DNA of 64,000 bases from Candidatus Nomurabacteria bacterium (lineage in GTDB: Bacteria; Patescibacteriota; Minisyncoccia; Phycocordibacterales; UBA918). A model generated the notes under the pieces. That model was not told the origin of the DNA and did not search any database. It saw nothing but the letters and a program-made list of their open reading frames with translations. Below, in pieces: positions 16,154-30,351 of the stretch. The DNA lies in the NCBI GenBank assembly GCA_023898565.1, contig CP060228.1, forward strand, positions 25,448 through 89,447, written 5' to 3'. The position numbers were made by a program, and so were the translations under genes. Within the stretch, counting starts at the first letter, position 1. Every line of letters starts with the position of its first letter.

Positions 16154-16265
16154 TTACTTTGAAGCATTACAAAGCTTGGCTACCTCAATCGAGTATCATT
16201 AAAATAATACAAAAGTCCGTACGAAATGCTCGCACGGACCCCTGTAAATGCTTCTTTTTCTGATT

Positions 16266-16360
16266 TGCTCCGCGTACTGGACGAGTTTCGAACATTAGAC
16301 TGGTTGGGTATTGAAAAAGATTTGCGGTTCGTTGAGTTTGCAAAATGAAAAAGCCGCCCC
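16266..16360 (-). repeat. Repeat copy A of a ~90-nt intergenic element related to the tRNA-Asn 3' end
   Basis: Shares tttgctccgcg...tttcgaac...caaaatgaaaa with copy B. There is an 11-nt identity with the tRNA-Asn 3' end plus its flank. Confidence 0.6.
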
Positions 16361-16407
16361 TTCGTTCGAGACGAAAGATTGGCTTCCCCGTCCCGCCAAA
16401 GTGGCGA

Positions 16408-16731
16408 CTAGCCGATAGCTATACCGACTGCAAGACCTGTAGCGAAGTTTGAGCCGTCATCCTCTGCAGCTTCCTGGATTGATTCGAGTTCCTCGTGATC
16501 CAGCCAGACGCCACTGCACTTTGGACAGCGATCGATAATGATGACTCCATCAAGGATGGGTTCCTTTTTCATCGCCATACCATCGACAGGGCAGTTCCTC
16601 ACTTCTTCGCCCTGCATTCGCAACTCGATTTCACAATCCGAGCAGATTGGATTTCCAGACTCATCCTTGCGACGAGTTCTATTCTCGCCACAGTTTTGAC
16701 AGGTTTCCTTCGATTTGAATAGACCGAACAT
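16408..16731 (-). CDS. Zinc-ribbon protein (zf-TFIIB-like) with a hydrophobic C-terminal tail
   Basis: CQNCG...CSDC and CPVDGMAMKKEPILDGVIIIDRCPKCSGVWLDHEEL match the zf-TFIIB (PF13453-like) pattern. Confidence 0.55.
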   Translation of the reverse strand: MFGLFKSKETCQNCGENRTRRKDESGNPICSDCEIELRMQGEEVRNCPVDGMAMKKEPILDGVIIIDRCPKCSGVWLDHEELESIQEAAEDDGSNFATGLAVGIAIG

Positions 16732-16762
16732 TTGCGCCTCCTAAGACGTTGAATTCAAATCG

Positions 16763-16791
16763 AATGATAGCACGTATAACTTGCTATGTCA
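16763..16791 (-). promoter_or_regulatory. sigma70-like promoter (TTGACA, 17-nt spacer, TATCAT) for the 16408-16731 gene
   Basis: Minus-sense sequence ttgacatagcaagttatacgtgctatcat, immediately downstream of repeat B. Confidence 0.45.
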
Positions 16792-16795
16792 AGTA

Positions 16796-16887
16796 ATGCT
16801 CCGCCTGTTGGATGAGTTTCGAACATTGGACTGGATAAGTATAGAAAAGGATTTGCTGTATTGTGATCTGACAAAATGAAAACCGCC
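16796..16887 (-). repeat. Repeat copy B
   Basis: tgctccgcctgttggatgagtttcgaacattggactgg...caaaatgaaaaccgccc, closely similar to copy A. Confidence 0.6.
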
Positions 16888-16911
16888 CTCCAACGGTTCT
16901 CGTTGTGGGCG
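16868..16911 (-). terminator. rho-independent terminator of the 16914-17417 gene
   Basis: ccgccc..caacg..cgttg..gggcgg nested stem followed by TTTTCATTTTG on the minus strand. Confidence 0.6.
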
Positions 16912-16913
16912 GT

Positions 16914-17417
16914 TCAGAGCAGTGGCGTTTTTGAATATTCACCACCATCTCCGATACGTCCTCGTGAAATTTCTTGAAGCTTGAGTTGATCACCTTCGGA
17001 ATTGACTCCGAAGAATGAAACATCTCCTGGGCCAAGTAGAAGCCGCACGGGTCCACGAACCTTGATTCGTGATACACCTGCCACATCGTGAGCGAGCCAA
17101 CCAATGTGCCATTCCTGGTCAACATGGGTGGGTTGCAGAACGACGTAATCCTTCCATCCTCCAAGAAGAGGGATATGAAAGAATGGCATCTTAAGCCAAA
17201 AGCGTGCTCCAGCAGATTTGTTCCCTTCGCAGAACACTTGCATATCATCCTTCAGGTGTGCAACCTGACCAGATTTCAACTTAGTGTTGTTCCAGCGATG
17301 GGTTTGCTGAGGAGTTTCTCTGAAAGTTCCTGAGATGATGTACATAATGGGAAGCATTAGCACATCAGCAATACGTTCCAACCATCCAAGAGGTTGGACG
17401 TGGATTTTGTTCAACAC
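16914..17417 (-). CDS. Hypothetical protein (GTG start after RBS aggagg)
   Basis: 167-aa ORF with host-like GC content. No family recognised. Confidence 0.45.
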   Translation of the reverse strand: MLNKIHVQPLGWLERIADVLMLPIMYIISGTFRETPQQTHRWNNTKLKSGQVAHLKDDMQVFCEGNKSAGARFWLKMPFFHIPLLGGWKDYVVLQPTHVDQEWHIGWLAHDVAGVSRIKVRGPVRLLLGPGDVSFFGVNSEGDQLKLQEISRGRIGDGGEYSKTPLL

Positions 17418-17451
17418 GACATACCTCCTGAAGGTTGTTTAGACTGGTTGT

Positions 17452-17480
17452 ATAATAAAACAGTATTTATACTGTGTCAA
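17452..17480 (-). promoter_or_regulatory. sigma70-like promoter (TTGACA, 17-nt spacer, TATTAT) for the 16914-17417 gene
   Basis: Minus-sense sequence ttgacacagtataaatactgttttattat. Confidence 0.45.
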
Positions 17481-17484
17481 GTGA

Positions 17485-17555
17485 TGCTCGCCTGGCGGGA
17501 TGCTTTCCGAAGCTATGATTGGCACAATTGCTTTGTTTCTGTTGAAAGTGACATT
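17485..17555 (-). repeat. Repeat copy C (more diverged), at the left boundary of the AT-rich island
   Basis: tgctcgcctggcgggatgctttccgaagc...ttgctttgtttctgttgaaagtgaca aligns with copies A and B. Confidence 0.45.
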
Positions 17556-17758
17556 AGAGAGATCAATAGATTAGTCGCATTGGTCTAGACCGTTTCCCTT
17601 CTCAACAATTTCAACTAAACGCAGTAATTTAGACGCTTTTTCATACGCCACATCTCGCTCTAAAGTTTCACCGTAATGCTTTTGATAGAGCTCAATAAAT
17701 TGATCTAAGTGCTCGTTAGATATTTTTGCCAAAACTATTTGATACAAAAACTCATGCT

Positions 17759-17947
17759 TTACGCATGAATTTTTTCTGCTTTATTTGATATAGTCTCCTG
17801 ATCTTCCTGCGCTCTTTTTAAAGCGCTGTTGTAGACTCGTTTGCGTTCTCGTGACTTCGTTTCAATAAAAAACTTGTACACAGGGTCAGCTGACGTCTCT
17901 GGACGCTTATAGAATAACCCTTTTATAGTTGCGACTAGGTGTGTCAT
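17759..17947 (-). CDS. Small protein (62 aa) translationally coupled downstream of the zeta-toxin-like kinase
   Basis: 4-nt ATGA overlap with the upstream gene. Basic and charged composition. Confidence 0.4.
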   Translation of the reverse strand: MTHLVATIKGLFYKRPETSADPVYKFFIETKSRERKRVYNSALKRAQEDQETISNKAEKIHA

Positions 17948-18648
17948 ATCAAACTCTCAATCTCATCTTTACTGTACTTTTTTGGCAGGTATGTGTCAAG
18001 ATTATCGATGTTGAATGTAATTTTATACTGTTTGGTCTTAAGGTTTCTTTCAATAAGATCAACCCGAACACGATTACCGTACTCCCGCTTAATCGTAGCC
18101 ACATTGTCTCGCGCGGCAATAAATTGCTCAATGAAGTCTTCTCTTTGAATATTTCTACCGTCCACCTTTTCCCTGTCTTGAGTAAACTTCCAAGCAATCT
18201 CTGGAGGCTGAAGTACATACTCAATGAATATAGGTCTATCTTTACTGAGCGATAGATCAATATTGTTTCTGGCTTGATCAATTTTTGAAAAAGTACCATC
18301 TAACAAAAAACTATACGATTTACTCTTTACATAGTCATGTAATTTATTAACCCCAAGCGCAACAGCACCTTGGAACAAATGAGCTTTCCCCGGTTCATAC
18401 TGAGGGAGCCAAAGGCGAATTGCATCTGGATCAATCTGAACAATCTTATCTTCTGCTCCCATAATCTCATTGATCAGCCGAGTCGAGAACTCAGTCTTTC
18501 CTGCACCCGGAGATCCAGCCATGAAAATTGATACTGGTCTTCCAACAGGAGTAACCTTACCCACAAAATGATCAACAAGCTCCTTTTGATGCTTCTTGAC
18601 GTGTTCTATTGCTTCAGCAGAAAGATTGTTCTCCTCTGGGCTAGTCAT
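17944..18648 (-). CDS. Zeta-toxin family P-loop kinase (PezT/zeta-like, AAA_33)
   Basis: Walker A FMAGSPGAGKTEFS in the zeta-toxin G(S/Q)PG(A/S)GKT form, LLDGTF, size about 230 aa. Confidence 0.65.
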   Translation of the reverse strand: MTSPEENNLSAEAIEHVKKHQKELVDHFVGKVTPVGRPVSIFMAGSPGAGKTEFSTRLINEIMGAEDKIVQIDPDAIRLWLPQYEPGKAHLFQGAVALGVNKLHDYVKSKSYSFLLDGTFSKIDQARNNIDLSLSKDRPIFIEYVLQPPEIAWKFTQDREKVDGRNIQREDFIEQFIAARDNVATIKREYGNRVRVDLIERNLKTKQYKITFNIDNLDTYLPKKYSKDEIESLI

Positions 18649-21600
18649 GAGTTCTCAATAGTAGCAATCTCCTCGGGGGTCAGGTCATAGAGCTTGTAAA
18701 CTAACTCGTCAGCTTCATTCAAATACTTTTCTGCCGGAATGTTTTGCGTAGTTGCTTTAACTATCTCTTCATAACACACTTTTAGCTTATCAATGCTCAC
18801 GGGATCATGATCTAAACTTGGTAATGGCATATCTCTCAAGTGTCTTGGGTAAAAATGCAATCCATTTGACAACAGTTCACTGAAAAACCAGCTAAGTAAT
18901 TTTGAGTTCAGAATTACAGTTACCGCTTTCATATCATACTTTTGTGACAACTTGATCCGTTCCTGACTTAATTTTCCTTTGACTTGGGAGTAGGTTAAGT
19001 GTTCTAACAAGTGATATGGCACAGCATTAATAAGAGCGTCGTTATTGTAATAACCAACATCGTCATACACCGCTTGGATACCAGTCCTTCCAACAACGTT
19101 TTTCACAACGATCTTGTGACTTTCAAACAACTCCGGGAAACAGGGGGCTTTATGTTTGCTTGGTTGATAGTCTAGATACAGCTTTTTCTTTACCACATAC
19201 CTCTCGAAGTTCTTCCCCTCCAAGTACTGCTTATATCCGTCTGCATAAACATCGTGTATAAAGTCACCCTTACCAATTTTGAGTTTTGTGTTATGTATCT
19301 CTGCCCCCTTTGATACATAAAATGCATTTTCAAACTTGATCGTTGATTTAATGATCTTTTGGATTATCTGGACCTTGCCGTCATCTAAATCAAGTTTGAA
19401 ATTGTAATCTGGATGTATTTTAAAAACCTCCTTGCTAACAGTACTGAATGGTAACGAGTATAGATTGGGTAATTTTTTCGTCTTGTGGACATACGCTTCA
19501 AACTCACCTCCTCCTTCAGCATCATCGTCAGCATTAGATATAATACTTATCTGTGTGTCCACTGTAGCAGAGTCAAACACTTGATGGGCTGAGAAGTCTA
19601 GTAATCTTAATATTCTCTTTCCAAGCAAAAGTGCCCTTAATTGCTTACCGTACGATTGCGCAAGCCACTTGTTACTTGTTATATACGATATGATGCCATT
19701 TACTGCCAAAAGGCCAAAAGCTCGCTCATAGAAAAGAACGTATAGGTCATAATGACCTTTCGCTGTAGTGTATATATTTTGATATTTATCTTTCTGTTCT
19801 GGCTTTATTTTCCAAATACTAACGTATGGTGGGTTCCCTATAACTACATCAAACTTAGCTTCCACATCATGCATAAGCAACTGGTCATAGAAGCTGGCAG
19901 GATGCTCATTACTGAACGGATCATAAGTATGAAGCTGGTCGTTAAGCTGTGAGCCAAACATAGTCCCTTGTTTACGAAGAGTTGAGTATTTTGTCTCAAG
20001 CTTTTCACGTTGCTTAGGAGTTGCCTTAAAATACTCTTTCTTGATCTCTAACAAGGTCTCATATTTACCACCATCATCCAAAGCCGCTTCTTCACTCAGA
20101 GGTAAAAGTGTATTGGCACAGACGAATTTAAACTCTAGGTTTGGCAAGGTGTCCACACCACCATTTGGTTTCTTTTCAACATACTCTTGATCAACCACAA
20201 GAGCAAGAAAACTTCGAAGTCGAGCGATCTCAATAGCAAGTGGCTCGATGTCTACTCCGTAAATGTTACGCTCCATAATACCAAGCTTGGTCCGATACGG
20301 ATCAAAACGAGCATCGAGTCGTTCGTATATCTGGACCAGAAGATGCAGCATACCAATTGGAAAAGCCCCAGACCCACAAGCAGGATCAAGCACTTTCATA
20401 CCATCCAGCGCCTTTACAATCTTCTCTCGCAGCACAGGCTCTACCACGTCCCGCTTACTGTTTGTTCCTGACTTTGCCCAATCACTATCAGGAGTATCAA
20501 GCAATCTATCTATAGAGTTTTTAGCCTTATCTCCAGCCTCTAGTGCAGTACACAAGTATGCCCTGACACTCTCTCGACACATATAAGCCACAATCTCTCT
20601 TGGTGTATAGAAGGCACCTTTCGCTTTTCGAGCCTGCTCTCCTGTTTCTTCATTAATCTCAGCTAACAAGTTTTCAAAGATACGTCCGAGCATTTCAGGA
20701 TCAATCGCAATTTGCTCATAGTCAGGAGTTGACTCATCTGTTGTGAAATTAAACTCGCTGAAATGTTCATAGAGATTAACAAAAAAACCCTTTGGGAAAG
20801 GAATGTCACTTCCCCTCCAATCATCTGGGCGATCTTCAAAGAGTCCTCCGTTTAAGTACGGTGTCTTAAGGTCAGGATGCGGACGCTCACGATCATTCTG
20901 TGGAGTATTTAAAACACCAAAGAAGAGCAGCTCGAGTTTTTCCTTATAGTACGAACTGGCATCCGTGTGTGTAGTATCAAAATAATTGACGTCTCTCGAG
21001 ATAAAACCTTTTTTGTCTAGAAACCAACAAAAGAGCAAACGACCGTGTAGACGATTAGCAAAATGGCGAGCTTCGTCAGAACTTTTACCACCCTCCTCTA
21101 GATGAGAGACCAGATGTTTAAAACTGTTGGCAATACCCTTATAAAAAGCTTCGTTAATGCTTTTTAGCTTGAAACTATCCCAAATAGTTAGATGGAGGGC
21201 TTCACGACCCAAATTGGCTACTCCTTCCCATTTGGAGAAGATGTCTTTTTGCGTATTTGAGAGCTGATCTTTCAGTTCAACAATACGAAGAGACTTATTG
21301 TTAGACAATACTATCAGCAACGCATCATTTTCTGGAGTTAAGAAAAAGTCCACTCCTATCTTCGAAGCAGGGTCCTGTCTTGTAAATAAGGCGTCTTCAT
21401 AGTTTGGCGTAAAATGCACCGCGCCAGACACGTAGAGCTTTGACTTCTTCTTAAGTGCATACAACTTTGCTTCGAGAGGACCTTCTTTTGTGTCATTAAG
21501 GGCAAAGCATGCACGATTACTCTTGAACTTAGGATGAGCCTGAAACCAATGATCATAACGCTCGGCATTGGGCAATTTAAGTGCTGTAAGTAGTACATAA

Positions 21601-21749
21601 TCACTACTTGAGGGGTCATCTGTCTTAACTCCATTCACGTCAGCCAACATCAATACCTCACGAGCGACTCCCAATCCAGCCTCTATGGTTCTTTCGCTAC
21701 TTAATTTACTTAGCGCAGCATCAATTTTTTCAAAAGTATTATTTTGCAT
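18645..21749 (-). CDS. gamma-class N6-adenine DNA methyltransferase of Type IIG / MmeI- or PglX-like architecture (1034 aa)
   Basis: Motif X GAFYTPREIV, motif I VLDPACGSGAFPIGML, YGVDIEPLAIEIARL, motif IV VIGNPPYVSIWK. Includes an N-terminal ~350-aa region with a possible D...ExK nuclease-like segment (VDFFL...IVELK) and a C-terminal ~400-aa TRD-like region. Confidence 0.8.
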   Translation of the reverse strand: MQNNTFEKIDAALSKLSSERTIEAGLGVAREVLMLADVNGVKTDDPSSSDYVLLTALKLPNAERYDHWFQAHPKFKSNRACFALNDTKEGPLEAKLYALKKKSKLYVSGAVHFTPNYEDALFTRQDPASKIGVDFFLTPENDALLIVLSNNKSLRIVELKDQLSNTQKDIFSKWEGVANLGREALHLTIWDSFKLKSINEAFYKGIANSFKHLVSHLEEGGKSSDEARHFANRLHGRLLFCWFLDKKGFISRDVNYFDTTHTDASSYYKEKLELLFFGVLNTPQNDRERPHPDLKTPYLNGGLFEDRPDDWRGSDIPFPKGFFVNLYEHFSEFNFTTDESTPDYEQIAIDPEMLGRIFENLLAEINEETGEQARKAKGAFYTPREIVAYMCRESVRAYLCTALEAGDKAKNSIDRLLDTPDSDWAKSGTNSKRDVVEPVLREKIVKALDGMKVLDPACGSGAFPIGMLHLLVQIYERLDARFDPYRTKLGIMERNIYGVDIEPLAIEIARLRSFLALVVDQEYVEKKPNGGVDTLPNLEFKFVCANTLLPLSEEAALDDGGKYETLLEIKKEYFKATPKQREKLETKYSTLRKQGTMFGSQLNDQLHTYDPFSNEHPASFYDQLLMHDVEAKFDVVIGNPPYVSIWKIKPEQKDKYQNIYTTAKGHYDLYVLFYERAFGLLAVNGIISYITSNKWLAQSYGKQLRALLLGKRILRLLDFSAHQVFDSATVDTQISIISNADDDAEGGGEFEAYVHKTKKLPNLYSLPFSTVSKEVFKIHPDYNFKLDLDDGKVQIIQKIIKSTIKFENAFYVSKGAEIHNTKLKIGKGDFIHDVYADGYKQYLEGKNFERYVVKKKLYLDYQPSKHKAPCFPELFESHKIVVKNVVGRTGIQAVYDDVGYYNNDALINAVPYHLLEHLTYSQVKGKLSQERIKLSQKYDMKAVTVILNSKLLSWFFSELLSNGLHFYPRHLRDMPLPSLDHDPVSIDKLKVCYEEIVKATTQNIPAEKYLNEADELVYKLYDLTPEEIATIENS

Positions 21750-24700
21750 AAAATAATAATGCTTCAGAAGACTCTACCGTTAGGTCTTCAGGTGTATGAG
21801 CAGCAGATGACTGTTCTTCATACGCCTCCTTCAAAGCGTTAATTGTTTGAGGCAGCAGCTGACCACTTTCCTTAATGTCTCGATTTGCAGCTGTAAACAA
21901 CTTATTCCATTTTGTCTTAGATTGGATCGTCATAATGTTCTGAACAACTGACTGGAACTGCAAACCAGGCAAAACACGAGCCAGCTCATCAAGCACCTTA
22001 ACTTGGGATGGTTTGAGCTTACCTGGGGTTGATACTGAAACAGCTTCATTTGAAGCCTGTGCTTCTACCAGCCGACGTACAGCTCCCCTGTCTGCAGTAA
22101 TAGTATCTATCTGACGGCTGTTTTCTTCACTAGTTGTACGCAGATATGTAAGGGCCTCTAGCGTCTCAACCGGATCTGACACGTCACCATCTGATGCCAC
22201 AAAAATGTTTGCACGCAGCTCGTCAGTACCATTTTGCGTGTATACTTCGGTAAGAGAAAGTACTGTCGGGCAATCATGATCATTTCGTGCATGGCTAGGA
22301 AAATAACCCCATTTACCTCGAGGTATACGTTCCATTTGTCGGAAGGCTTCTTCTGTTGCGTTTTTACTAAACGCCCTCAAGTCATTTACATACTCATCTT
22401 CAGACAAAAAGTCATCATCATCCTCCAAAGTTTCAGCATACTCAGTGGCTTTTTCAGAGTATAAGTTCTCGACGTACTCAATTGGGTTTTCTTTCTCCCC
22501 CAAGACGGACTGGTCAGTTCCTATGGAACGACGAATACGTTCGACTTTTCCTTCAAGACGTTTTACTAGTTTCAAATAAGCTTCTAGCTGTGCGGCAGGA
22601 TTTAGATTGTAGATCCAAACCTTTTCATGCGGAGAACCCAAACGATTAATACGGCCGTTACGCTGGATCATGCGGACCGGGTTCCAGTGGAGATCAAAGT
22701 TTATGATAATACCAGAGTCCTGCAAGTTTTGACCCTCAGAAAGTACATCTGTAGCAAATAGGTATTGCAACTCATCCTCCGGGGAGACTTCCGCTTTCTT
22801 TGCTCTAGGCGCAAACCTCTTAGTAAGATCTTCAATTTCTTTTATGTTAGCTCCTGAGATAAATGCCGCCTTCTTAGCAAAGTCCTCACCTAGAATAGTT
22901 GGCAATTTGTCCTGAAGATACGCAATCGTGTCTGCATAAAAACTAAAAACAAGCACCTTACCACCATTTAATTTTTCTTCCCGTAAACCATTTATCAAAG
23001 AAACAAATGCCTGGAGTTTATCGTCTTGTTCCTCAAGTAGTTTACAAACAGAGATGAGGGCTTCGATTATCTTTCGATCGCGATTAAGGTCTGTGCGGAT
23101 TGCTGGGATATTGAATACATTATCGTCTGCTTCAACATGATCAGTATCCAGCTCTACTGCTGCATCGGCCTCAACATCATCACCCTGATCCTTCACAATG
23201 TCATAAATTTGCTTGAAGGTAAGAATGTACCCCTTGGTGAGCCACTCTTCGAAGAGATCAATCTTACCGATGTATGCCTCTAGCGAACGACGTAATGCAT
23301 ACGGAGAAGACTCTAACCTCTTTAGGAGACTCACCCGCAGCATATTGTGGATACTAAGTGCACTCATTAACTTAAAACTCTCTCGCTCATTGAGGTCGTA
23401 TGACTTCACCACCTCAATGTCTTTAGCATAAAACTGATGCTTGTATGTCTCTGATCGATACGGAGTGAAGCCAAGAGTAAGAAGAGAGCGGAAGAGTGAC
23501 ACAAATGTGTCAGGAACTCCTTCTCCCTCTACTATTAGTGATTGGTCTCCTTTCACAATATCTAATGGATGCTGTGTTCTTTGGGTCACTTCCAGAAAAC
23601 GGTCGTGGTCAAGATTGGTCACCGACACTCCCTCGAAATGTTCTACACACTTTTGCAGAGTCTCATATACCACCCGATCTCGCTCACCACCATACTCGTA
23701 AGGAGAGGGTACAACCTCACTCTTAGGGAATGTTCGAAGCACACCATCGTTTCCTAACAGACCACCGAACTCTTTTTCAATACCCGCTCTAGTTGAACGC
23801 ACCAAAAACTGCCTCAACCCCTGTCTCATCACTCGATGTATCCGGTCCCAATCAGGCTCTTGGCTGTCTTTTTCTGACTTTTTTATCTCAGTTGAAAGTC
23901 GACTAACAGCATCGTAGAAGTCGATCACTTCATTTTTCTTGGTCGTTTTAAATACAACAGGAAATGAAGTCAGTTTCCCTTTTGCTGCAAGCTGGACCTG
24001 GTTAACAAAGTCTTCAAGCTGGTTATTAATTGGCGTAGCCGTCAACAGAAGCACCTTGCTGTCTGGATTGGCAGCCAGCCACTCTAGTATCTGCTGATGC
24101 CGTTTACTGGCGTTATTTCGAAGGTTGTGCGCTTCATCAATCACAAAGAGGTCTACAGGCGCATACTTATCAATCACACGAGCTTTCTCGATCGCATCGG
24201 GATTTTGCATCGATATCAACTCGTAACCGTTCACTAACCCATGATGATCAGCCAACTCTTCCCTCCACTGCGACTCCAGTCTCTTGGGAACGATTACATT
24301 GATACGCCGAAAACCTTGCTCGACATAATGCTTAATCACTGCCCCACCGGTGATAGTTTTACCAAGACCTACTGAGTCTGAAAGCATGGCCAAACCATGC
24401 TTTTCTAGCTTATTTATTAGTAATTGAGCATTTCGCTGTTGAAACGCATAGAGCACTTTTTCTACGTCGGCCGAGAGTTCAACATTATCAGCAATTTCTT
24501 CCGAATATAAAGTCAGTAGGGTTTTAATGTACATCTCGTATGGGCTGGGTGTGAGATCCCCAACCGGAGAAGTGCGGACCAGCTCAATAAATGCACCAGT
24601 CCAATCTTCTGTTTTTTCATCTGACCACATCTCATCAAACCATGATAAATGACCTGTTTCCTGCTCAGGACTATTAGGCTTATATGTGACTACACGGTAA

Positions 24701-25188
24701 TCAGTCTCAAGTGCGTTCAGTTCTGCGTTGTCTGTGAGGCCATTTCTCGTGAAGTTTGATGAGCCAATTATCCCCACCGCTTCTGGCGACTCATATGTAC
24801 CAAAGATATAGCATTTAGCATGCAAAAAACTCTTTCGATAGACACGAACTTGAACCTTCCCTTCATCAATCAAACTCTTCAGATGAAACACCACCTCTCG
24901 TAACTCTGGAGTTGGATCAATGCGTTGTAGATCCTGGAAAAAGTCCTCATCAGGATAATCAAGCTCAGGTTCCTCAATATCCTTTTTATTATCGCGCTTG
25001 AGTAACGGTTCTCTCCCTATGAGAATACGCACCTGTTTATAGTCTTTCAGAGCATCTATCACTAGTTTCATCCCCTCAATATCCCAATAACCAGTCGCAA
25101 TGGAAAGATGATCGTGCTGCTTACTTGCTTCAAGAAAAGCATCTAGCATTACGCGACGATTGTTATCAATGATATTTGGGAGTGACAT
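21739..25188 (-). CDS. Fusion protein: N-terminal single-HKD phospholipase-D-family nuclease domain plus SNF2/SF2 helicase (1149 aa)
   Basis: HKD motif SFLHAKCYIFG...IIGSSNFTRNG. SNF2 ATPase motifs DSVGLGKTITGG, LFVIDEAHNLRN, LLLTATPINNQLEDF. C-terminal helicase domain LFATDVLSEGQNLQD, HWNPVRMIQRNGRINRLGS. Confidence 0.8.
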   Translation of the reverse strand: MSLPNIIDNNRRVMLDAFLEASKQHDHLSIATGYWDIEGMKLVIDALKDYKQVRILIGREPLLKRDNKKDIEEPELDYPDEDFFQDLQRIDPTPELREVVFHLKSLIDEGKVQVRVYRKSFLHAKCYIFGTYESPEAVGIIGSSNFTRNGLTDNAELNALETDYRVVTYKPNSPEQETGHLSWFDEMWSDEKTEDWTGAFIELVRTSPVGDLTPSPYEMYIKTLLTLYSEEIADNVELSADVEKVLYAFQQRNAQLLINKLEKHGLAMLSDSVGLGKTITGGAVIKHYVEQGFRRINVIVPKRLESQWREELADHHGLVNGYELISMQNPDAIEKARVIDKYAPVDLFVIDEAHNLRNNASKRHQQILEWLAANPDSKVLLLTATPINNQLEDFVNQVQLAAKGKLTSFPVVFKTTKKNEVIDFYDAVSRLSTEIKKSEKDSQEPDWDRIHRVMRQGLRQFLVRSTRAGIEKEFGGLLGNDGVLRTFPKSEVVPSPYEYGGERDRVVYETLQKCVEHFEGVSVTNLDHDRFLEVTQRTQHPLDIVKGDQSLIVEGEGVPDTFVSLFRSLLTLGFTPYRSETYKHQFYAKDIEVVKSYDLNERESFKLMSALSIHNMLRVSLLKRLESSPYALRRSLEAYIGKIDLFEEWLTKGYILTFKQIYDIVKDQGDDVEADAAVELDTDHVEADDNVFNIPAIRTDLNRDRKIIEALISVCKLLEEQDDKLQAFVSLINGLREEKLNGGKVLVFSFYADTIAYLQDKLPTILGEDFAKKAAFISGANIKEIEDLTKRFAPRAKKAEVSPEDELQYLFATDVLSEGQNLQDSGIIINFDLHWNPVRMIQRNGRINRLGSPHEKVWIYNLNPAAQLEAYLKLVKRLEGKVERIRRSIGTDQSVLGEKENPIEYVENLYSEKATEYAETLEDDDDFLSEDEYVNDLRAFSKNATEEAFRQMERIPRGKWGYFPSHARNDHDCPTVLSLTEVYTQNGTDELRANIFVASDGDVSDPVETLEALTYLRTTSEENSRQIDTITADRGAVRRLVEAQASNEAVSVSTPGKLKPSQVKVLDELARVLPGLQFQSVVQNIMTIQSKTKWNKLFTAANRDIKESGQLLPQTINALKEAYEEQSSAAHTPEDLTVESSEALLFYAK

Positions 25189-25219
25189 AGCTAAAAGAGT
25201 ACCATTTTAAGGGGTGTTT

Positions 25220-25633
25220 TCAAATTAAAATGTCACGGGTTATCTCGACCAACTGGTTTGGATTGGACCTGAGATCAACTTCTATAAACTGCTGGTCTAA
25301 CTCCACGCTATCAAAACGGGCACGTTCTTCAGGAAAGATTTCATTATCAAACCAAATGAGGTCATAGTCCCAATCTATCCCTTCGGTTTTGTTTACATCC
25401 CAGACTGTGCCTTTAATGTCGTCAATAAGCCGGTGTATGTCAGGCGAAGTAACTCGCTTTACTATCTCCTGCGCTCTTGTCGGATCACCTTCTCTACAGT
25501 GAGTTGTAAGCCAATAAAGCTCATGTGTTTGTAAGGCCAAAATAAAGTCTTCAAGACCAGCTGCTGGTTTACCGTAATTTTCTGTTAAGTCCTCATGTAT
25601 AAGAGTACCGTCGATATCTAAGTAAACCTTCAT
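25220..25633 (-). CDS. Small HAD-superfamily-like hydrolase (137 aa)
   Basis: N-terminal LDIDGTL (DxDGT motif I). Abuts the FtsK-like gene. Confidence 0.4.
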   Translation of the reverse strand: MKVYLDIDGTLIHEDLTENYGKPAAGLEDFILALQTHELYWLTTHCREGDPTRAQEIVKRVTSPDIHRLIDDIKGTVWDVNKTEGIDWDYDLIWFDNEIFPEERARFDSVELDQQFIEVDLRSNPNQLVEITRDILI

Positions 25634-25634
25634 G

Positions 25635-27068
25635 TTATTCAGGGTCCACTAATACATTCCGTGGCTTCGATCCATCCTGTGGACCTATCACCCCACTATC
25701 CTCTAGAAGATCCAGCAATCGAGCCGCTCGGGAGTACCCAATACGTAAACTACGTTGTATATACGACGTAGAAGCTTTACCTGCCTTAATCACTGCCGCT
25801 TTAGCATCTTCATACAGATCATCTTCTTCTCCATCTCCACCCACCATGGCGTTGAATATCGCATCATTTCCGTTGTAATGATCGAAGTCTAAGGTGTCCA
25901 GTTCCCCTTCATCATACTTCTTCCAAACTTTGACCCGGTCGATGATCTCATCCTCTGAAATATAGAGTCCCTGAATGCGTTGTGGTCTGAAGTCTTCGGG
26001 AGATTGTAAGAGCATATCCCCCTCGCCTCGCAACTTCTCTGCTCCACCGACATCTAGAATGGTTCGTGAGTCCACCTGACAAGCCACCATCATAGCGATA
26101 CGAGCTGGGATATTGGCCTTAATAGATCCTGTAATAACACTGGTGGATGGTCGCTGGGTGGTCAAAATAAGGTGAATACCGACTGCTCTACTCATTTGTG
26201 CTAAGCGGACCACACAAGCTTCAAACTCGGCAGGATATGTCTGCATAATGTCATTGAGCTCGTCTACAATGATCAGAATAAATGGGAGGGCTTCAGGCAG
26301 CTCAGCACGATCCGCTTCCTTAGCTCCTGCTTTTTCCCAGCTTTCTTTAGCAGGCTGGTACACATCCTTGTGGTAGACAGAAATGTTCATTACTCCTTCT
26401 GCTTCCAGAATGTCATATCGCCGCTCCATCTCCTTTACCGCCCAGGAAAGCGCCTGGACAGCCTTCTTGGCCTGTGTAACAGGCTTAGTGAGCGAGTGTG
26501 GCAATCCATCATATAAAGTAAGCTCAACCAGCTTAGGATCAATGAACATAAAACGGACCTGCTCGGGTGTGTTCTTCTCAATCAGTGCGTTAATGAGTGA
26601 GTGAAGCAAGACAGACTTACCCGAACCAGTGGTCCCGGCAGCCAGGATGTGTGGCATCCGGGCAATGTTCATTAAGTGTCGATTACCAAACTCATCAATA
26701 CCGAGTGGCACCACTAGAGGGCCACTTTCTCTGAACTCTTCCCACTTGAGTGCATCGCTAAAGGGTATGGCTGGTAAGTCTTCCTTCTTAGGTACCGTTA
26801 TACCAACCAGCTTCTTGTTAGGGACCGGAGCCTGGATCTCTACGCCGTCATTACTTAGTTCATACCTGAGGTCCTCCACAAAGCTAGCGAAGGCTTTCAT
26901 CCGCATCGGCTTCTTTGGTTGAAGGTAGAAATGGTAACTACTAAACCCATCAACCGCCTCCACCACCTCAACTGGCACCTTAAACTCCTTAAACATGCTC
27001 ACAATGGTCTCTGCCATCTTCTTAACCACTTCCCTACTCTGAGCAAGGGGGGTATGCTTTTTTAACAT
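25635..27068 (-). CDS. FtsK/SpoIIIE-family DNA translocase lacking an N-terminal membrane anchor (TraB/Tra-like)
   Basis: Walker A LAAGTTGSGKSVLLHSL, Walker B ILIIVDELNDIM, C-terminal gamma winged-helix domain YEDAKAAVIKAGKASTSYIQRSLRIGYSRAARLLDLLEDSGVIGPQDGSKPRNVL. Confidence 0.8.
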   Translation of the reverse strand: MLKKHTPLAQSREVVKKMAETIVSMFKEFKVPVEVVEAVDGFSSYHFYLQPKKPMRMKAFASFVEDLRYELSNDGVEIQAPVPNKKLVGITVPKKEDLPAIPFSDALKWEEFRESGPLVVPLGIDEFGNRHLMNIARMPHILAAGTTGSGKSVLLHSLINALIEKNTPEQVRFMFIDPKLVELTLYDGLPHSLTKPVTQAKKAVQALSWAVKEMERRYDILEAEGVMNISVYHKDVYQPAKESWEKAGAKEADRAELPEALPFILIIVDELNDIMQTYPAEFEACVVRLAQMSRAVGIHLILTTQRPSTSVITGSIKANIPARIAMMVACQVDSRTILDVGGAEKLRGEGDMLLQSPEDFRPQRIQGLYISEDEIIDRVKVWKKYDEGELDTLDFDHYNGNDAIFNAMVGGDGEEDDLYEDAKAAVIKAGKASTSYIQRSLRIGYSRAARLLDLLEDSGVIGPQDGSKPRNVLVDPE

Positions 27069-27267
27069 ACCTTAACTTTACACCCAAAAGGTCCCTCACG
27101 CACAAAACTTATCCCCTACCAGTCAAACACCTAAAATAGGTTGATAAATAAGCCCAGAATGCTTAAATTAGCACATTTACATTTTTGCCCCTTGTCGTGG
27201 TACTAGACTTTATGCAAGCTGCTTGTACAGACACAACTTACTCACATTTATGTTGTAATTTAAAACA

Positions 27268-27807
27268 CTATTGATAGTGCATATCACCGTCTTCATCGTA
27301 CTCAAAAACACCATTTTCACAAAAAGGACAGGTGTCTCCACTCTCACAAAAGTCCTTATTGCCGCAATGTATGCACGACTCATCTGCTTTATATACAAAT
27401 TTCGGGACCAGATCATCCTTCTTGAACTCATCAGTAAGCAACACCTTGCGATGTTTGAAAAAGTAGTGATGTTGCTCCTCTGGACCAAGTATCCCCCTTT
27501 TTTCTAGATACGGTACAGCGTCATACCAAATGCCGACATCTTCAAGATCCTGCTCGCACACATACTCATAAGCCTTTAAGGCTTGGACCTGCTCCCACAG
27601 CTCGTCAAAGTCTGTTCTGAAGCGATACGTCTTTACATCTGTCTTGCAGTGCTTACAGATCTTTTCGGTAGAGAAAACGCCATCAAAAGGAGCTCTCCTC
27701 TCAAGAGATGCTAACTCCCCCTTCTCATTAAGCGCAATCGGGATGCCTGTCCCGGACCTTAGACAGTGCCCACAATTGTTGCAATAGCTGAATGATATGT
27801 ATCCCAT
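27268..27807 (-). CDS. Cysteine-rich hypothetical protein (multiple CxxC pairs)
   Basis: CNNCGHC...CKHC...CIHCGNKDFC...CPFC. Confidence 0.45.
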   Translation of the reverse strand: MGYISFSYCNNCGHCLRSGTGIPIALNEKGELASLERRAPFDGVFSTEKICKHCKTDVKTYRFRTDFDELWEQVQALKAYEYVCEQDLEDVGIWYDAVPYLEKRGILGPEEQHHYFFKHRKVLLTDEFKKDDLVPKFVYKADESCIHCGNKDFCESGDTCPFCENGVFEYDEDGDMHYQ

Positions 27808-27811
27808 ATCT

Positions 27812-28216
27812 TTACTTTTCTAGACGTAGTTTGAACTCTTCTTTTACCCGACCAGCTATCTCTGACTCCCACCCTTCAGCATTAGATAAAAAATACGCAA
27901 CAATTGACCTTGCGGAGTCAGACCCGTAGCTGTCAGCCATAGTCTCTATCTCCATCATCGCCGTCACATACGGGTAGGCACTTCGAGACACACTATCACC
28001 CCAATCCTCCATAATAATGTCCGCCAGTTGACTCAACGTTAGTTCTGAAAGATCTTGATTGTCGTACCAGTGCTCTGCTTTCCCATCAAAGAAATGTTGG
28101 CACGAGTCACACATCCACTGTTTCTGGACCTCATTGGATATATCCATGAGATCACACATGTCTTCTACACTCGTTGCCTCATTTCCACCACATTTGGGAC
28201 AGATCACTTTTGTCAT
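27812..28216 (-). CDS. Zinc-ribbon hypothetical protein
   Basis: MTKVICPKCGG...CDSC. Confidence 0.45.
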   Translation of the reverse strand: MTKVICPKCGGNEATSVEDMCDLMDISNEVQKQWMCDSCQHFFDGKAEHWYDNQDLSELTLSQLADIIMEDWGDSVSRSAYPYVTAMMEIETMADSYGSDSARSIVAYFLSNAEGWESEIAGRVKEEFKLRLEK

Positions 28217-28226
28217 ATCAAACCTC

Positions 28227-28619
28227 TTAAGTCCCAGAGACAGCGTCAAAGAAACTAATAACTAAACCAATCAACGCCCAAACCCCAATAAATATGAACA
28301 GGTATTTAAAAACTTTACTCTGAGTTCTAGGCTCATCAGATCCATTACCATCAACACTATTGCCTCCGTTTTTTGATTGTCTCTTTGGACCAATGTCTGG
28401 ATTATTACGCTTGATAGCTTCGACAATATCAATCGCAAAAAAGAAGCGTTGTAATAGGAGGGTTCCTATAACATATCCGAGCACCCCTAAAGGAAATATC
28501 TTACCGATAATAAAAATAGTGATCAACGCTACTACAGATGCCTGGAAGTTTCTATGCCGTTTTACCTCTTTGCCTATCTGCTCCTGGGTCTTAACCGGCT
28601 TTTCTTGCTGGTCTTTCAT
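28227..28619 (-). CDS. Small membrane protein, hypothetical
   Basis: Two TM segments with a Gly/Asn-rich loop. Confidence 0.4.
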   Translation of the reverse strand: MKDQQEKPVKTQEQIGKEVKRHRNFQASVVALITIFIIGKIFPLGVLGYVIGTLLLQRFFFAIDIVEAIKRNNPDIGPKRQSKNGGNSVDGNGSDEPRTQSKVFKYLFIFIGVWALIGLVISFFDAVSGT

Positions 28620-28836
28620 ATTAAAAAGTGACTAGTTTACTCTGGCAGCAGGCACAACAAAGCCCGCTACTAAGGAAAGCTCCTTACGGAAACTTCTACC
28701 AGCGTTTCCACTGGTAACGATAGACACGCCCTTAATAACGGGTTCTCTTGTGTCTATCGTTTTTCGACCATGCCGCTATCTCACGACTGCGGGTTAGGTC
28801 ATTGAAATATTTAGTTGTTCGAGTATTGTATCAGAA

Positions 28837-29583
28837 GTGACAAAAAACATCGAAACAGACAAAGTAAAAATAATAAAGGAGGCTGCAGAACTTCATCTGA
28901 ACCCCATTTTACGTGACAAAACATATCTTCTTCTAAAGACACTAAGCAGGGTCAGCAACCCAAGACTTTCACACCACAAAAAAGAGGTATCTGTTACAGA
29001 ACTCACTCATACGGAACTTTCAGAAGAGGACTTAGACAAAATTTTGCAGTTTATTGAAGACTGTTTAACACGAATAAGAACATTGGCCGACATTGGTTGG
29101 TCTGGAAAAAGTGTAATGGAAAGGCCATCATTTGGACCTAAATTTAAAGGACCGTATATCCAAGGCTCAAAAGTCGTACTCAATACTTTTTTCGATTATC
29201 ACCCCTTTATCTCTGCACTGTCTAACAGCACTGAAGAGGACGGCGCAAACAAACTAGCATCGACGCCCACAAACACACTTGTAGCAAGTAGAAGTCTTAA
29301 AGGTATTTACTTCAAGAATGAACCGGGGCTTATTGTGAAATACAAAATGCGCAGACTTAATCTGATCCTTCACTTATTCAAATACGGAGAAACAAAAACA
29401 TCTGATCTTACAAATGATTTGACGCCCGATGGAAGCGATAATGATTATGATGTTGAAGACGCTGTGAGACACATCAACAATAGGTTCATAGAAGAACTCA
29501 AATTGGAAGATAAATTGATTATCGGTGAGTGGGGTTCAGGGTACCGCATCAACGAAAAGTACAATACTGAAATTGCCGACTAA
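28837..29583 (+). CDS. Hypothetical protein (possible DNA-binding or replication/regulatory protein of the element)
   Basis: 248-aa AT-rich ORF. Tandem 11-bp repeats lie just downstream. Confidence 0.4.
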   Translation: MTKNIETDKVKIIKEAAELHLNPILRDKTYLLLKTLSRVSNPRLSHHKKEVSVTELTHTELSEEDLDKILQFIEDCLTRIRTLADIGWSGKSVMERPSFGPKFKGPYIQGSKVVLNTFFDYHPFISALSNSTEEDGANKLASTPTNTLVASRSLKGIYFKNEPGLIVKYKMRRLNLILHLFKYGETKTSDLTNDLTPDGSDNDYDVEDAVRHINNRFIEELKLEDKLIIGEWGSGYRINEKYNTEIAD

Positions 29584-29689
29584 CTACTTTAAAACAGGGT
29601 CAAAACAGGGTCAGTCATCTTAAAAGAAGTGGAAAAGACTACAAAAAAGCCAGGTCATAACAGGACCAGGCTTTTGTTATTTTTGTGAC

Positions 29690-29857: not shown

Positions 29858-30115
29858 TGCACATTGACCAGAGGTGGTAAGTGGCTCCTCTCTAAAAAAG
29901 TAACTTGGAGGTGGTGTGCAGATGCCAATCCCCCGCTCTGACTTTAGGGTTGTCAACGGGGGACCTCATCTGCACGTCACTAATCTTCCTGCTTCTATCA
30001 AAGTTAGAGGGTAAATAGAAGATAAGGTTGGTCAATAGAACATAAACCTCCCCTTTTACATAGTATGAGGGGAACAAAACCCTAATTTAAAAATGTAACG
30101 TTTTATACAAAAACT

Positions 30116-30349: not shown

Positions 30350-30351
30350 CT

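What the first reader, a model, noticed from the sequence alone, without database searches (positions are those of the whole stretch)
16266..17555. Three copies of a ~90-nt intergenic repeat that resemble the tRNA-Asn 3' end plus flank, each followed by a sigma70-like promoter: probable decayed att remnants of serial integrations
Copies A (16266-16360) and B (16796-16887) are closely similar. Copy C (17485-17555) is more diverged.

On the plus strand, the tRNA-Asn region reads ctttgctccgcgggcaggattcgaacc. Copy A reads atttgctccgcgtactggacgagtttcgaac and copy B reads tgctccgcctgttggatgagtttcgaac. They share the acceptor-stem-complement string tttgctccgcg (11 of 11 in A, including 4 nt of flank beyond the tRNA end) and the T-loop ttcgaac.

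Each copy sits between small minus-strand genes. B and C run directly into TTGACA-17-TATCAT/TATTAT promoters, and each is preceded by the terminator of the previous gene.

The simplest interpretation is a tandem array of partial tRNA 3' ends left by successive site-specific integrations at tRNA-Asn, with the current element at 17.6-31.9 kb being the latest. The alternative is a dedicated cis-regulatory module shared by the three small genes.
Basis: seen in the sequence. Interest (0 to 1): 0.6.

Follow-up and report, generated by a model that had tools for sequence, protein, structure and literature searches.

The report
Serine-recombinase attachment-site relics beside tRNA-Asn
The three repeats are scars left at a tRNA-Asn gene by mobile islands that insert with a large serine recombinase; each scar is the island-side half of the recombination site plus the last ~30 codons of the recombinase gene, which insertion cuts off from the rest of the gene.

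Summary
The repeats are real. A (16265-16348) and B (16796-16879) are 78% identical. C (17484-17588) is recognisable only at peptide level.

They are not decayed tRNA ends. Each is the element-side half (P') of a large-serine-recombinase (LSR) attachment site, plus the last 27-34 codons of an LSR gene, detached by integration.

The window's LSR gene (30352-31935) runs into tRNA-Asn (31896-31968) and ends in 13 tRNA-encoded codons. In circular relatives (L041, L043) the same ORF continues into a tail homologous to copy C. So C is attL, and the LSR/tRNA junction is attR, of a 14.4-kb island. A and B are older attL-type relics, each keeping one cargo gene.

The tRNA resemblance has two parts: the shared crossover core (TGCTCCGC) and a TTCGAAC motif. 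That motif lies 13 nt from the core in 58 of 65 copies but 8 nt in the tRNA. This is the 5-bp attP/attB offset described for serine integrases.

More than 60 further copies turned up in other candidate-phyla-radiation genomes. Wherever a tRNA was in reach it lay downstream on the opposite strand, and it was tRNA-Asn in 10 loci.

How LSR-less cassettes accumulate is unresolved.

The parts
16265..16348 (+). Copy A: attL-type relic of the oldest insertion. It comprises the core TTGCTCCGC (16265-16273), the P' half-site with TTTCGAAC (16286-16293), and a detached recombinase tail ORF, LLRVLDEFRTLDWLGIEKDLRFVEFAK*.
16796..16879 (+). Copy B: second attL-type relic. It comprises the core ATGCTCCGC (16796-16804), TTTCGAAC (16817-16824), and the tail MLRLLDEFRTLDWISIEKDLLYCDLTK*.
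17484..17588 (+). Copy C: attL of the present island. It comprises the core ATGCTC (17484-17489), the P' half-site with TTTCCGAAG (17504-17512), and the detached last 33 codons of the recombinase gene, ..LAWRDAFRSYDW...RLVALV*.
17490..31897 (.). The integrated island (~14.4 kb). It carries two small ORFs, a zeta toxin (17944-18648), an Eco57I/MmeI-type methylase (18645-21749), an SNF2/PLD protein (21739-25188), an FtsK/SpoIIIE protein (25635-27068), LOOT RNA (28676-28800) and the recombinase.
   Evidence: The left boundary comes from the strain polymorphism that starts right after 17489.
30352..31935 (+). Large serine recombinase gene (527 aa; Resolvase + Recombinase domains). Its last 13 codons after the core (..LLRGQDSNLRPIG*) are specified by the antisense of tRNA-Asn.
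31866..31918 (+). attR. It comprises the P arm (palindrome GGTGCCTTTCGGCACC 31866-31881, then CTCATCCTAC), the core TTTGCTCCGC (31893-31902), and the B' half-site in the tRNA with ATTCGAACC (31910-31918).
31896..31968 (-). tRNA-Asn(GTT), the target gene. It is intact after integration.
16408..16731 (-). Cargo gene between A and B: a 107-aa zinc-ribbon protein, with its own promoter (16792-16764) and terminator (16378-16354).
16914..17417 (-). Cargo gene between B and C: a 167-aa protein of unknown function, with its own promoter (17480-17452) and terminator (16901-16878). Its homologues sit in unrelated contexts in other CPR genomes.
16208..16246 (-). Terminator-like hairpin just left of copy A. 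It is probably the original terminator that followed tRNA-Asn before the first insertion (the B arm of the first attB). This is an inference.

Best explanation
**Shown**
- The window comes from a Candidatus Nomurabacteria (candidate phyla radiation) genome.
- It carries a 14.4-kb island inserted at the 3' end of tRNA-Asn by a large serine recombinase (LSR).
- The element's attachment site attP lies inside the 3' end of the LSR's own gene.
- Integration therefore cuts off the last 33 codons of the gene. They stay at the far end of the island as copy C (attL). The rest of the ORF is fused to 13 codons read from the antisense of the tRNA (attR).
- In circular relatives the ORF is unsplit.

**Shown by family comparison, for A and B**
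- They are the same kind of object: the core, then a P' half-site, then a detached tail of 27 codons. They come from a different tail subtype.
- They are left over from earlier insertions. Each is still followed by one cargo gene with its own promoter and terminator.

**What the tRNA resemblance is**
- The crossover core TGCTC(C)GC, which corresponds to the discriminator and the last acceptor-stem bases.
- The motif TTCGAAC, which I take to be the site of the recombinase's zinc-ribbon domain.
- This motif sits 13 nt from the core in the element half-sites and 8 nt in the tRNA. That is the 5-bp shift that distinguishes attP from attB half-sites in the Listeria integrase model.

**Inferred**
- The crossover lies at about the CT/TC of GCTCC.
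- The array grew from left (oldest) to right (newest).

**Not resolved**
- Whether the one-gene units are decayed islands or recombinase-less cassettes moved in trans.
- Whether swapping the recombinase tail has a regulatory role.
For: **The recombinase and the junction**
1. The ORF 30352-31935 has Resolvase and Recombinase domains. It reads ACT TTG CTC CGC GGG CAG GAT TCG AAC into the tRNA. This is the same frame as xTG CTC CGC in A, B and C.
2. Of 120 homologous LSRs, 42 end in tRNA-encoded tails (..LLRGQDSNLRPIG). Another 57 stop at LLR. Twelve carry P'-type tails such as ..LAWQDSFRTFGW...RLLSLV*.
3. Copy C matches the extreme C-termini of P0111, P0072 and P0067, with E 9e-7, 3e-5 and 9e-5. 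The distance to the stop codon is the same for P0067 and P0072 (P0111 runs on past it). The best hits of A and B are also such tails (E 0.02 and 0.01).

**Circular, unsplit forms**
4. The contigs carrying the unsplit LSRs P0067 and P0072 are the only 2 of about 90 loci with terminal overlaps (127 and 24 nt), which marks them as circular.
5. Their attP equals the left arm of the window's attR plus the right arm of copy C (alignment A4).
6. A near-identical strain (L005, L008) diverges from the window exactly after ATGCTC (17489) and carries a different island there.

**Half-site geometry**
7. The spacing CTCCGC-N13-TTCGAAC holds in 58 of 65 distinct copies. It is N8 in the four tRNA-Asn genes the scan could score and, read by eye, in the T-loop variants it could not.
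8. In the published model, ZD motifs occupy positions 16-24 in attP and 11-19 in attB (PMC3783163).

**Distribution and coding signature**
9. An nhmmer profile finds element copies in 74 loci. Ten of them hold tRNA-Asn, always on the opposite strand and downstream of the element.
10. Outside the part fixed by my search pattern, pairwise differences fall 3977/2666/5025 on codon positions 1/2/3.
11. Codon 1 is L, W, M or V. The LSRs show the same residues at that position, so it is not a start codon.
Against: - No unsplit LSR with the A/B-type tail (LRVLDEFRTLDW) was found. The profile search of 5.8 billion proteins gave only 2 short ORFs. The element copies hit by the metagenome scan have at most 81 open in-frame codons upstream; the two hits with 207 are unrelated proteins. 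So the link of A and B to an LSR gene rests on weaker tail homology, the shared core, spacing and frame, and context.
- Canonical serine integrases recombine only attP x attB, and integration destroys attB. The textbook mechanism therefore does not explain arrays.
- Most arrays elsewhere have no LSR between the element and the tRNA.
- The right ends of the one-gene units are promoters, not LSR P arms.
- The P arm does not show a TTCGAAC-like motif at the mirror position. Only an inner inverted repeat, CTCATCC/GGATGAG, is visible.
- The tail region of the AlphaFold model has pLDDT below 50, so nothing shows that the tail has a function.
- No read-level or experimental evidence of excision exists for this genome.
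Confidence: 0.8

Rival explanations
1. The copies are decayed duplicates of the tRNA-Asn 3' end, the displaced tRNA fragments typical of islands inserted by tyrosine integrases.
For: They share TGCTCCGC(G) and TTCGAAC with the tRNA, have the same orientation, and lie beside the tRNA. True tRNA-Asn 3'-end duplicates do occur near the tRNA in other loci: L024 6812-6840 and L081.
Against: - The 5-nt extra spacing is constant in 58 of 65 copies. Random decay would not produce that.
- There is no similarity to the tRNA beyond the T-loop motif.
- The next 50-75 nt are conserved in a codon-like way and are homologous to LSR C-termini.
- Real duplicates (L024, L081) are 20-27 nt of exact tRNA sequence and look different.
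- None of the 18 island ORFs scanned has a tyrosine-integrase domain.
Confidence: 0.04
2. The copies are independent genes for a conserved 27-34 residue peptide (LRVLDEFRTLDW...), transcribed divergently from the neighbouring genes. They are leaderless or poorly initiated.
For: - The frame is open in 16 of 19 full-length copies, while 4 of the other 5 frames are closed in 11-18 (the wobble-sharing antisense frame is closed in only 2).
- The substitution pattern is codon-like.
- The window copies begin with TTG, ATG and ATG.
- The stop codon is conserved, and one length difference between tails is an in-frame 6-nt indel.
Against: - There is no Shine-Dalgarno sequence, although the neighbouring genes have AGGAGG.
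- Codon 1 is TGG in 13 of 49 copies, and is TAG, AAG or GCT in others.
- Two of 49 copies have an in-frame stop at codon 7.
- Homologous sequence forms the in-frame C-terminus of a 546-552 aa recombinase in circular elements. That explains the coding signature without separate translation.
- The only unit called as a gene in 5.8 billion proteins was 2 short ORFs.
Confidence: 0.07
3. The repeat plus one gene is a mobile cassette in its own right. This would be an integron-like system in which a resident serine recombinase captures recombinase-less circles at the tRNA-Asn site, and the repeat plays the part of attC.
For: - Arrays of 2-4 same-orientation copies, each followed by a single unrelated gene with its own promoter and terminator, recur in many CPR genomes.
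- Most arrays have no LSR between the element and the tRNA.
- Unit boundaries are tight. The -35 hexamer lies a few nt (0-8) from the core in 11 of 63 copies.
- In L049 the unit is flanked by a 26-nt direct repeat of promoter plus core. Insertion there would regenerate the target.
Against: - No circular cassette was seen among about 90 loci.
- The reaction required (a site with a B-type left arm and a P'-type right arm recombining with attB) is not a permitted pairing for known serine integrases (PMC3783163).
- Decay of full islands, or homologous recombination between repeated flanks, could give the same picture.
Confidence: 0.2
4. The repeat is a cis-regulatory module or a structured RNA shared by the small genes, or a MITE/REP-type dispersed repeat.
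For: It lies between a terminator and a promoter in B and C. The sequence is strongly conserved.
Against: - There is no Rfam family.
- The consensus fold is only -2.8 kcal/mol on the plus strand and -1.3 on the minus strand.
- The neighbours are unrelated genes. In about half of the copies a terminator, not a promoter, lies beside the element.
- There are only three copies in 64 kb, all next to the island.
- The orientation relative to a tRNA is fixed.
- The conservation has 3-nt periodicity.
Confidence: 0.02

Closest known systems
Large serine recombinase (serine integrase) attachment sites, as defined for Listeria phage A118/LI integrase, Bxb1 and phiC31 (Rutherford et al. 2013, PMC3783163)
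   Same: - An LSR gene lies at one end of the element.
- attL and attR are hybrid sites.
- The common core is short.
- A distal motif lies 5 bp nearer the centre in the host half-site than in the element half-site.
- Free circular forms carry an intact attP.
   Different: - The target is the 3' end of a tRNA gene. As of 2015-2020 this had not been reported for serine integrases (PMC4383910; PMC7192596: 14 of 297 predicted, unproven).
- attP lies inside the recombinase's own coding sequence.
- Relics form arrays, which strict attP x attB specificity does not predict.
- The symmetry of the P arm is poor.
Integration-dependent immunity of mycobacteriophage BPs and relatives (attP inside the repressor gene; PMC4557955)
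   Same: attP lies within an ORF. Integration detaches about 33 C-terminal codons, so the free and integrated forms encode proteins with different C-termini.
   Different: - There the split gene is the repressor, the integrase is a tyrosine recombinase, and the lost tail is a proven degradation tag.
- Here the split gene is the serine recombinase itself.
- The tail is replaced by tRNA-encoded residues, and no function of the tail is shown.
Tandem accretion of integrative elements and cis-mobilizable relics at tRNA genes (tandem IGE arrays, PMC7192596; CIME/IME accretion, PMC5704250)
   Same: Several att-type repeats lie in one orientation next to a tRNA gene. The newest, intact element is nearest the tRNA, and reduced elements without an integrase lie further out.
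   Different: Those arrays are built by tyrosine integrases, whose core is regenerated at both ends. Here the recombinase is a serine integrase, and the relics are the element-side arm plus recombinase codons, not tRNA fragments.
Integron gene cassettes with attC sites
   Same: One-gene units, each ending in a conserved 60-100 nt recombination element, are stacked in one orientation next to a fixed site.
   Different: - There is no IntI tyrosine recombinase.
- The element has no attC-type imperfect palindrome (consensus fold about -3 kcal/mol).
- The cassettes have their own promoters and terminators.
- The element is homologous to a recombinase C-terminus.

Membership tests
Serine-integrase att sites (attP/attB/attL/attR) | A large serine recombinase (Resolvase + Recombinase domains) is encoded next to one junction. 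| tested here: met
   ORF 30352-31935 scores PF00239 2.4e-24 and PF07508 1.6e-16.
Serine-integrase att sites (attP/attB/attL/attR) | attL and attR are hybrids of one attP and one attB. The free element carries attP = P + P'. | tested here: met
   The attP of circular L041 aligns on its left with the window's attR and on its right with copy C.
Serine-integrase att sites (attP/attB/attL/attR) | The distal (zinc-ribbon-domain) motif is shifted 5 bp toward the centre in attB half-sites relative to attP half-sites. | tested here: met
   The spacing is N13 in 58 of 65 element copies and N8 in tRNA-Asn genes. The published positions are 16-24 against 11-19.
Serine-integrase att sites (attP/attB/attL/attR) | The two arms of each site are imperfect inverted repeats. 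| tested here: inconclusive
   The inner repeat CTCATCC (31883-31889) / GGATGAG (copy B) is centred on GCTCC. No TTCGAAC-like motif lies at the mirror position of the P arm.
Serine-integrase att sites (attP/attB/attL/attR) | The recombinase actually recombines the sites. | not testable with these tools
   This needs an in vitro or in vivo recombination assay.
Displaced tRNA fragment of a tyrosine-integrase island (Islander signature) | The repeat is a near-exact copy of the 3' part of the target tRNA. | tested here: not met
   Only 8-11 nt are shared, there is a constant 5-nt insertion, and the alignment is no better than shuffles for B and C.
Displaced tRNA fragment of a tyrosine-integrase island (Islander signature) | A tyrosine integrase is present in the island. 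| tested here: not met
   None of the 18 island ORFs scanned has a Phage_integrase domain. Small ORFs under 60 aa were not all scanned.
Integron cassette / attC | An IntI integrase, and an attC that folds as an imperfect hairpin. | tested here: not met
   No tyrosine recombinase was found. The consensus fold energy is -2.8 and -1.3 kcal/mol.
attP-within-ORF gene splitting (BPs-type) | The free and integrated forms encode products that differ at the C-terminus because attP lies in the ORF. | tested here: met
   Unsplit tails occur in circular contigs against tRNA-encoded tails in integrated copies.
attP-within-ORF gene splitting (BPs-type) | The two isoforms differ in stability or activity. | not testable with these tools
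   The tail has low confidence in the AlphaFold model (pLDDT below 50 for residues 495-518 and 523-546). No functional data exist.
MITE/REP dispersed repeat | Many copies are scattered through the genome, independent of tRNA genes. | tested here: not met
   There are three copies in 64 kb, all at the island. In other genomes the copies cluster, and every tRNA found beside an element in a CPR locus lies downstream on the opposite strand. The whole genome was not available.
Rfam RNA families | A match to a curated covariance model. | tested here: not met
   Only tRNA and LOOT RNA matched in the window, and nothing matched at the repeats.

The most novel reading that the evidence does not exclude
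Candidate-phyla-radiation bacteria use the tRNA-Asn 3' end as a gene-capture site served by a large family of serine recombinases, with two unusual properties.

(a) attP sits inside the recombinase gene. The enzyme therefore exists in a free-form isoform (conserved 27-34 residue tail) and an integrated-form isoform (tRNA-encoded tail). This would act as an integration-dependent switch of recombinase stability or directionality.

(b) One-gene units that carry only the detached tail/P' arm behave as recombinase-less cassettes. They are stacked, and perhaps mobilised in trans, like integron cassettes.
Probability: 0.25. Interest if true: 0.8.

Novelty: new variant of a known kind. Interest (0 to 1): 0.55.

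Why it matters
- It explains an odd-looking intergenic repeat as the footprint of a site-specific recombinase. It also gives attP, attB, attL and attR for a large, uncharacterised family of serine integrases: more than 2,300 homologues at E<=1e-20.
- The family targets a tRNA gene. The two genomic-island surveys I read (2015, 2020) said this had not been reported for serine integrases.
- The constant 5-bp offset between the element and host half-sites is an independent, natural confirmation of the structural model of how these enzymes tell attP from attB.
- These organisms have tiny genomes and few known routes of gene exchange. The tRNA-Asn site appears to be a main place where accessory genes accumulate, including defence systems and toxins.
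- If the tail swap or the cassette behaviour proves functional, it would be a new regulatory or gene-capture principle. It would also be a source of compact integrases with defined sites.

Tried and rejected
- Rfam at gathering threshold found no family at the repeats, either in the window or in 9 related loci.
- Pfam on the three peptide ORFs gave nothing.
- I treated the peptide as a fragment of a long protein family.
- I looked for the element in viral contigs and got 0 hits.
- I considered a minus-strand small RNA gene with a tRNA-like 3' end, because a terminator follows copy A and many other copies. I rejected it for four reasons. There is no room for a promoter between the upstream terminator and the element. 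There is no T-arm pairing. The consensus fold is negligible. The hairpin is better explained as the original terminator of the tRNA.
- I considered a tmRNA-like or two-piece tmRNA origin. ARAGORN finds none, and the coding strand is the wrong one.
- The 12-mer TTAGACTGGTTG, shared by copy A and 17439-17450, is a chance match. It lies in the 5' leader of the 167-aa gene, which is conserved without that string in L009.
- The second 11-mer, GAGTTTCGAAC at 31824-31834, lies in a different frame. It encodes the conserved FE(L/P) of the recombinase and is too far from the crossover to belong to attP.
- I looked for shared cargo between the island and the circular elements. Only the recombinase is shared.
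- The small ORF upstream of the LSR is not conserved between the window and L041.
- The Fpg neighbour could not be looked up to find an empty site.
Full report
**1. What is in the sequence**

The region holds three minus-strand genes, each with a strong Shine-Dalgarno sequence, a near-consensus promoter and a terminator:
- a 204-aa membrane protein, 15474-16088;
- a 107-aa zinc-ribbon protein, 16408-16731;
- a 167-aa protein, 16914-17417.

Between and beside them lie the three copies.

A (16265-16348) and B (16796-16879) are 78% identical over 86 nt. Their alignment score is 86, against 13.9+-2.3 for shuffles.

C (17484-17588) is not significantly similar to A or B as DNA.

The 11-mer that A shares with the tRNA flank is real, but it is one of 14 such 11-mers in the window. 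Alignment to the tRNA end plus flank beats shuffles only for A (8/1000), not for B (51/1000) or C (252/1000).

**2. A coding signature on the plus strand**

All three copies are open on the plus strand in one common frame that begins TTG/ATG/ATG CTC CGC. Their translations are:
- A: LLRVLDEFRTLDWLGIEKDLRFVEFAK*
- B: MLRLLDEFRTLDWISIEKDLLYCDLTK*
- C: MLAWRDAFRSYDWHNCFVSVESDIREINRLVALV*

In the first 20 codons, A and B differ at 5, 0 and 6 sites of codon positions 1, 2 and 3.

No Pfam or Rfam family matches. A profile of the peptides searched against 5.8 billion proteins found only two short ORFs. So this is not a piece of a common long protein family.

**3. Relatives**

The organism is a Candidatus Nomurabacteria MAG.

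Near-identical metagenome contigs keep A, B and the genes. One strain type (L005, L008, L003, L004) diverges from the window exactly after ATGCTC (17489) and carries other genes to the right. The polymorphism therefore starts at the first bases of copy C.

A back-translated pattern found 22 stretches in the reference genomes, about 14 of them in CPR bacteria. It found 50 in metagenomes.

An nhmmer profile then showed several things:
- copies form clusters of 2-4 in one orientation;
- some copies are partial, with only the first ~30 nt;
- there is a second subtype of that first part, GCTCCGCTGGGTGGAGGATGTTCGAACC.

Across 49 distinct copies, outside the part fixed by my pattern, differences fall 3977/2666/5025 on codon positions 1/2/3. 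Codon 1 is L (17), W (13), M (4), V (4) or K (3), so it is not a start codon.

**4. The link to tRNA-Asn is real**

An nhmmer profile finds element copies in 74 loci. Among these, tRNA-Asn is present in 10 besides the window. It is always on the opposite strand and downstream of the element. The few other tRNAs found beside elements in CPR loci (Val/Ile, Phe, Gln) have the same geometry.

**5. The recombinase**

The ORF 30352-31935 is a large serine recombinase. Its reading frame enters the tRNA as ...CAT CCT ACT TTG CTC CGC GGG CAG GAT TCG AAC CTG CGA CCA ATC GGT TAA, which translates as ..HPTLLRGQDSNLRPIG*. This is the same frame as the copies. L036 has the same junction.

The 120 closest of more than 2,300 homologues have these C-termini:

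| C-terminus | Number |
|---|---|
| tRNA-encoded tail | 42 |
| Ends at ..LLR | 57 |
| P'-type tail homologous to the copies | 12 |
| Other | 9 |

Examples of the P'-type tails:
- P0067: ..HPTWLAWQDSFRTFGWGEVMGDLETNNKETTRLLSLV*
- P0072: ..KLAWQDGFRTFGW...QLLALV*
- P0111: ..LLAWLDAFRTYDW...RLLALV..
- P0135: ..LLRIVNDVRTIF..

Copy C hits these extreme C-termini with E 9e-7 to 9e-5. The best hits of A and B are also such tails, at E 0.02 and 0.01.

The contigs carrying P0067 and P0072 have terminal overlaps of 127 and 24 nt. They are the only 2 of about 90 loci that do, so they are circular. A third unsplit copy lies on a 35.9-kb contig with no tRNA within 9 kb on either side.

The attP of L041 aligns on its left with the window's recombinase/tRNA junction and on its right with copy C. 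Hence:
- copy C is attL;
- 31866-31918 is attR;
- the island spans about 17490-31897;
- the crossover lies in the shared TGCTC.

**6. Why the copies resemble the tRNA**

The element half-site and the tRNA half-site share the core TGCTCCGC and the motif TTCGAAC. The gap between them is 13 nt in 58 of 65 distinct copies. It is 8 nt in the four tRNA-Asn genes my scan could score and, read by eye, in the T-loop variants it could not.

Rutherford et al. showed that the zinc-ribbon-domain motif occupies positions 16-24 of attP half-sites and 11-19 of attB half-sites, a 5-bp shift (PMC3783163). With the centre placed at the CT/TC of GCTCC, the motifs here fall at about 18-25 and 13-20.

An inner inverted repeat, CTCATCC (31883-31889) against GGATGAG, is centred on the same point. 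The outer part of the P arm is not symmetric, and I leave that open.

**7. A and B**

They have the same core, spacing, frame and stop, and they belong to the commonest subtype (LRVLDEFRTLDW..K*).

Copy A is preceded by a terminator-like hairpin (16246-16208), as are about half of all copies. I read this hairpin as the terminator that originally followed the tRNA.

B and C are preceded by the -35 hexamer of the gene to their left, as are 11 of 63 copies.

The order A, B, C would then run from oldest to newest.

What I cannot explain with the textbook mechanism is how arrays arise:
- serine integrases recombine only attP with attB, and integration destroys attB;
- most arrays elsewhere have no recombinase between the element and the tRNA;
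- the one-gene units end in a promoter, not in a recombinase P arm;
- in L049 a unit is flanked by a 26-nt direct repeat of promoter plus core.

Three possibilities remain open: decay of full islands, homologous exchange between repeated flanks, or true recombinase-less cassettes.

No unsplit recombinase with the A/B-type tail was found. This is the main weakness for A and B.

**8. The tail**

An AlphaFold model of P0067 (mean pLDDT 81) is confident to about residue 491. It gives pLDDT below 50 for residues 495-518 and 523-546. The att site therefore lies in the part of the gene that encodes a probably flexible C-terminal extension. Whether exchanging the tail matters is unknown.

The nearest precedent is the mycobacteriophage BPs repressor, whose gene contains attP and loses a 33-residue degradation tag on integration (PMC4557955).

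**9. Rivals**

- Structured RNA: the consensus fold is -2.8 and -1.3 kcal/mol and there is no Rfam hit.
- Dispersed repeat: only three copies in 64 kb, all at the island.
- Regulatory module: the neighbours are unrelated.
- Separate small gene: there is no ribosome-binding site, codon 1 is variable, and some copies have in-frame stops. It cannot be fully excluded.
- Decayed tRNA fragment: contradicted by the constant 5-nt offset, and by genuine tRNA duplicates that look different (L024, L081).

**10. Comparison with what is known**

This is a serine-integrase system and meets the tested defining features. It is unusual in three ways:
- It targets a tRNA gene. Islander (2015) states that serine recombinases are not known to do so. 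Mageeney et al. (2020) found 14 of 297 predicted cases and called for proof.
- attP lies inside the recombinase ORF.
- It leaves arrays of relics.

I rate it a new variant of a known kind.

Noticed in passing
window 28676-28800 (-): A LOOT RNA (Rfam RF03000, 69.9 bits against a gathering score of 46.4) lies inside the island, between a 130-aa ORF and a 248-aa ORF. No LOOT match was found in 9 other loci with related recombinases or element arrays.
   Followed up: partly
window 31866-31881; L041 ~6605-6620; L094 ~10513-10526: A perfect palindrome sits inside the recombinase 3' coding region, 12-27 nt left of the core. It changes by compensatory substitutions: GGTGCC-TTTC-GGCACC, GAGCAC-TTTC-GTGCTC, GACGT-TTTC-ACGTC. 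It could be an outer recombinase or directionality-factor binding site, or an mRNA hairpin.
   Followed up: partly
L005 866-1030 (= right of window 17483); L040 ~2490-2575: A strain variant has a 52-nt mini-unit between the promoter and the C-like copy: ATGCTCCGCTGGGTAGAGGATGTTCGAACCTGTGTTTGAGTTCCCTACTTTG. It looks like a P' arm fused to a recombinase P-arm end, with TTCGAAC 19 nt from a core on either side. A homologous unit occurs in another Nomurabacteria genome.
   Followed up: partly
window 17459-17476 and 16771-16788; L024 ~6768-6808; L049, L081, L037, L039: The promoters of the cassette genes carry an inverted repeat between the -35 and -10 hexamers. Examples are ACAGTAT-TTA-TACTGT in the window and a perfect 17-bp repeat in L024. 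This may be an operator or a bidirectional promoter.
   Followed up: no
L024 6812-6840 and ~6920; L081 ~3190-3390: Genuine duplicates of the tRNA-Asn 3' end (20-27 nt of exact tRNA sequence) and other tRNA fragments lie between the last cassette and the tRNA. This suggests that a second kind of integrase also uses the site.
   Followed up: no
L058 660-1523; L086 601-1359; L023/L067 2822-3512: Element copies with the same geometry lie next to tRNA-Val/Ile, tRNA-Phe and tRNA-Gln. Subfamilies of the recombinase may target other tRNAs.
   Followed up: no
window 17944-27068: The island cargo looks like a defence and addiction package: a zeta toxin, a 1034-aa Eco57I/MmeI-type methylase, a 1149-aa SNF2-helicase/PLD-nuclease protein, and an FtsK/SpoIIIE translocase that might serve in DNA transfer.
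   Followed up: partly
L037 4182-4859: An IS200-like (Y1 transposase) gene sits inside one of the Saccharibacteria arrays.
   Followed up: no
L024 2000-2034, 5285-5319, 6260-6317; L037 6950-7000: In Saccharibacteria the sequence left of several copies is itself repeated: TCTCCGCCGGAGCA followed by a terminator hairpin. The repeated unit is therefore longer there. The palindrome CTCCGCCGGAG resembles a tRNA acceptor stem.
   Followed up: no
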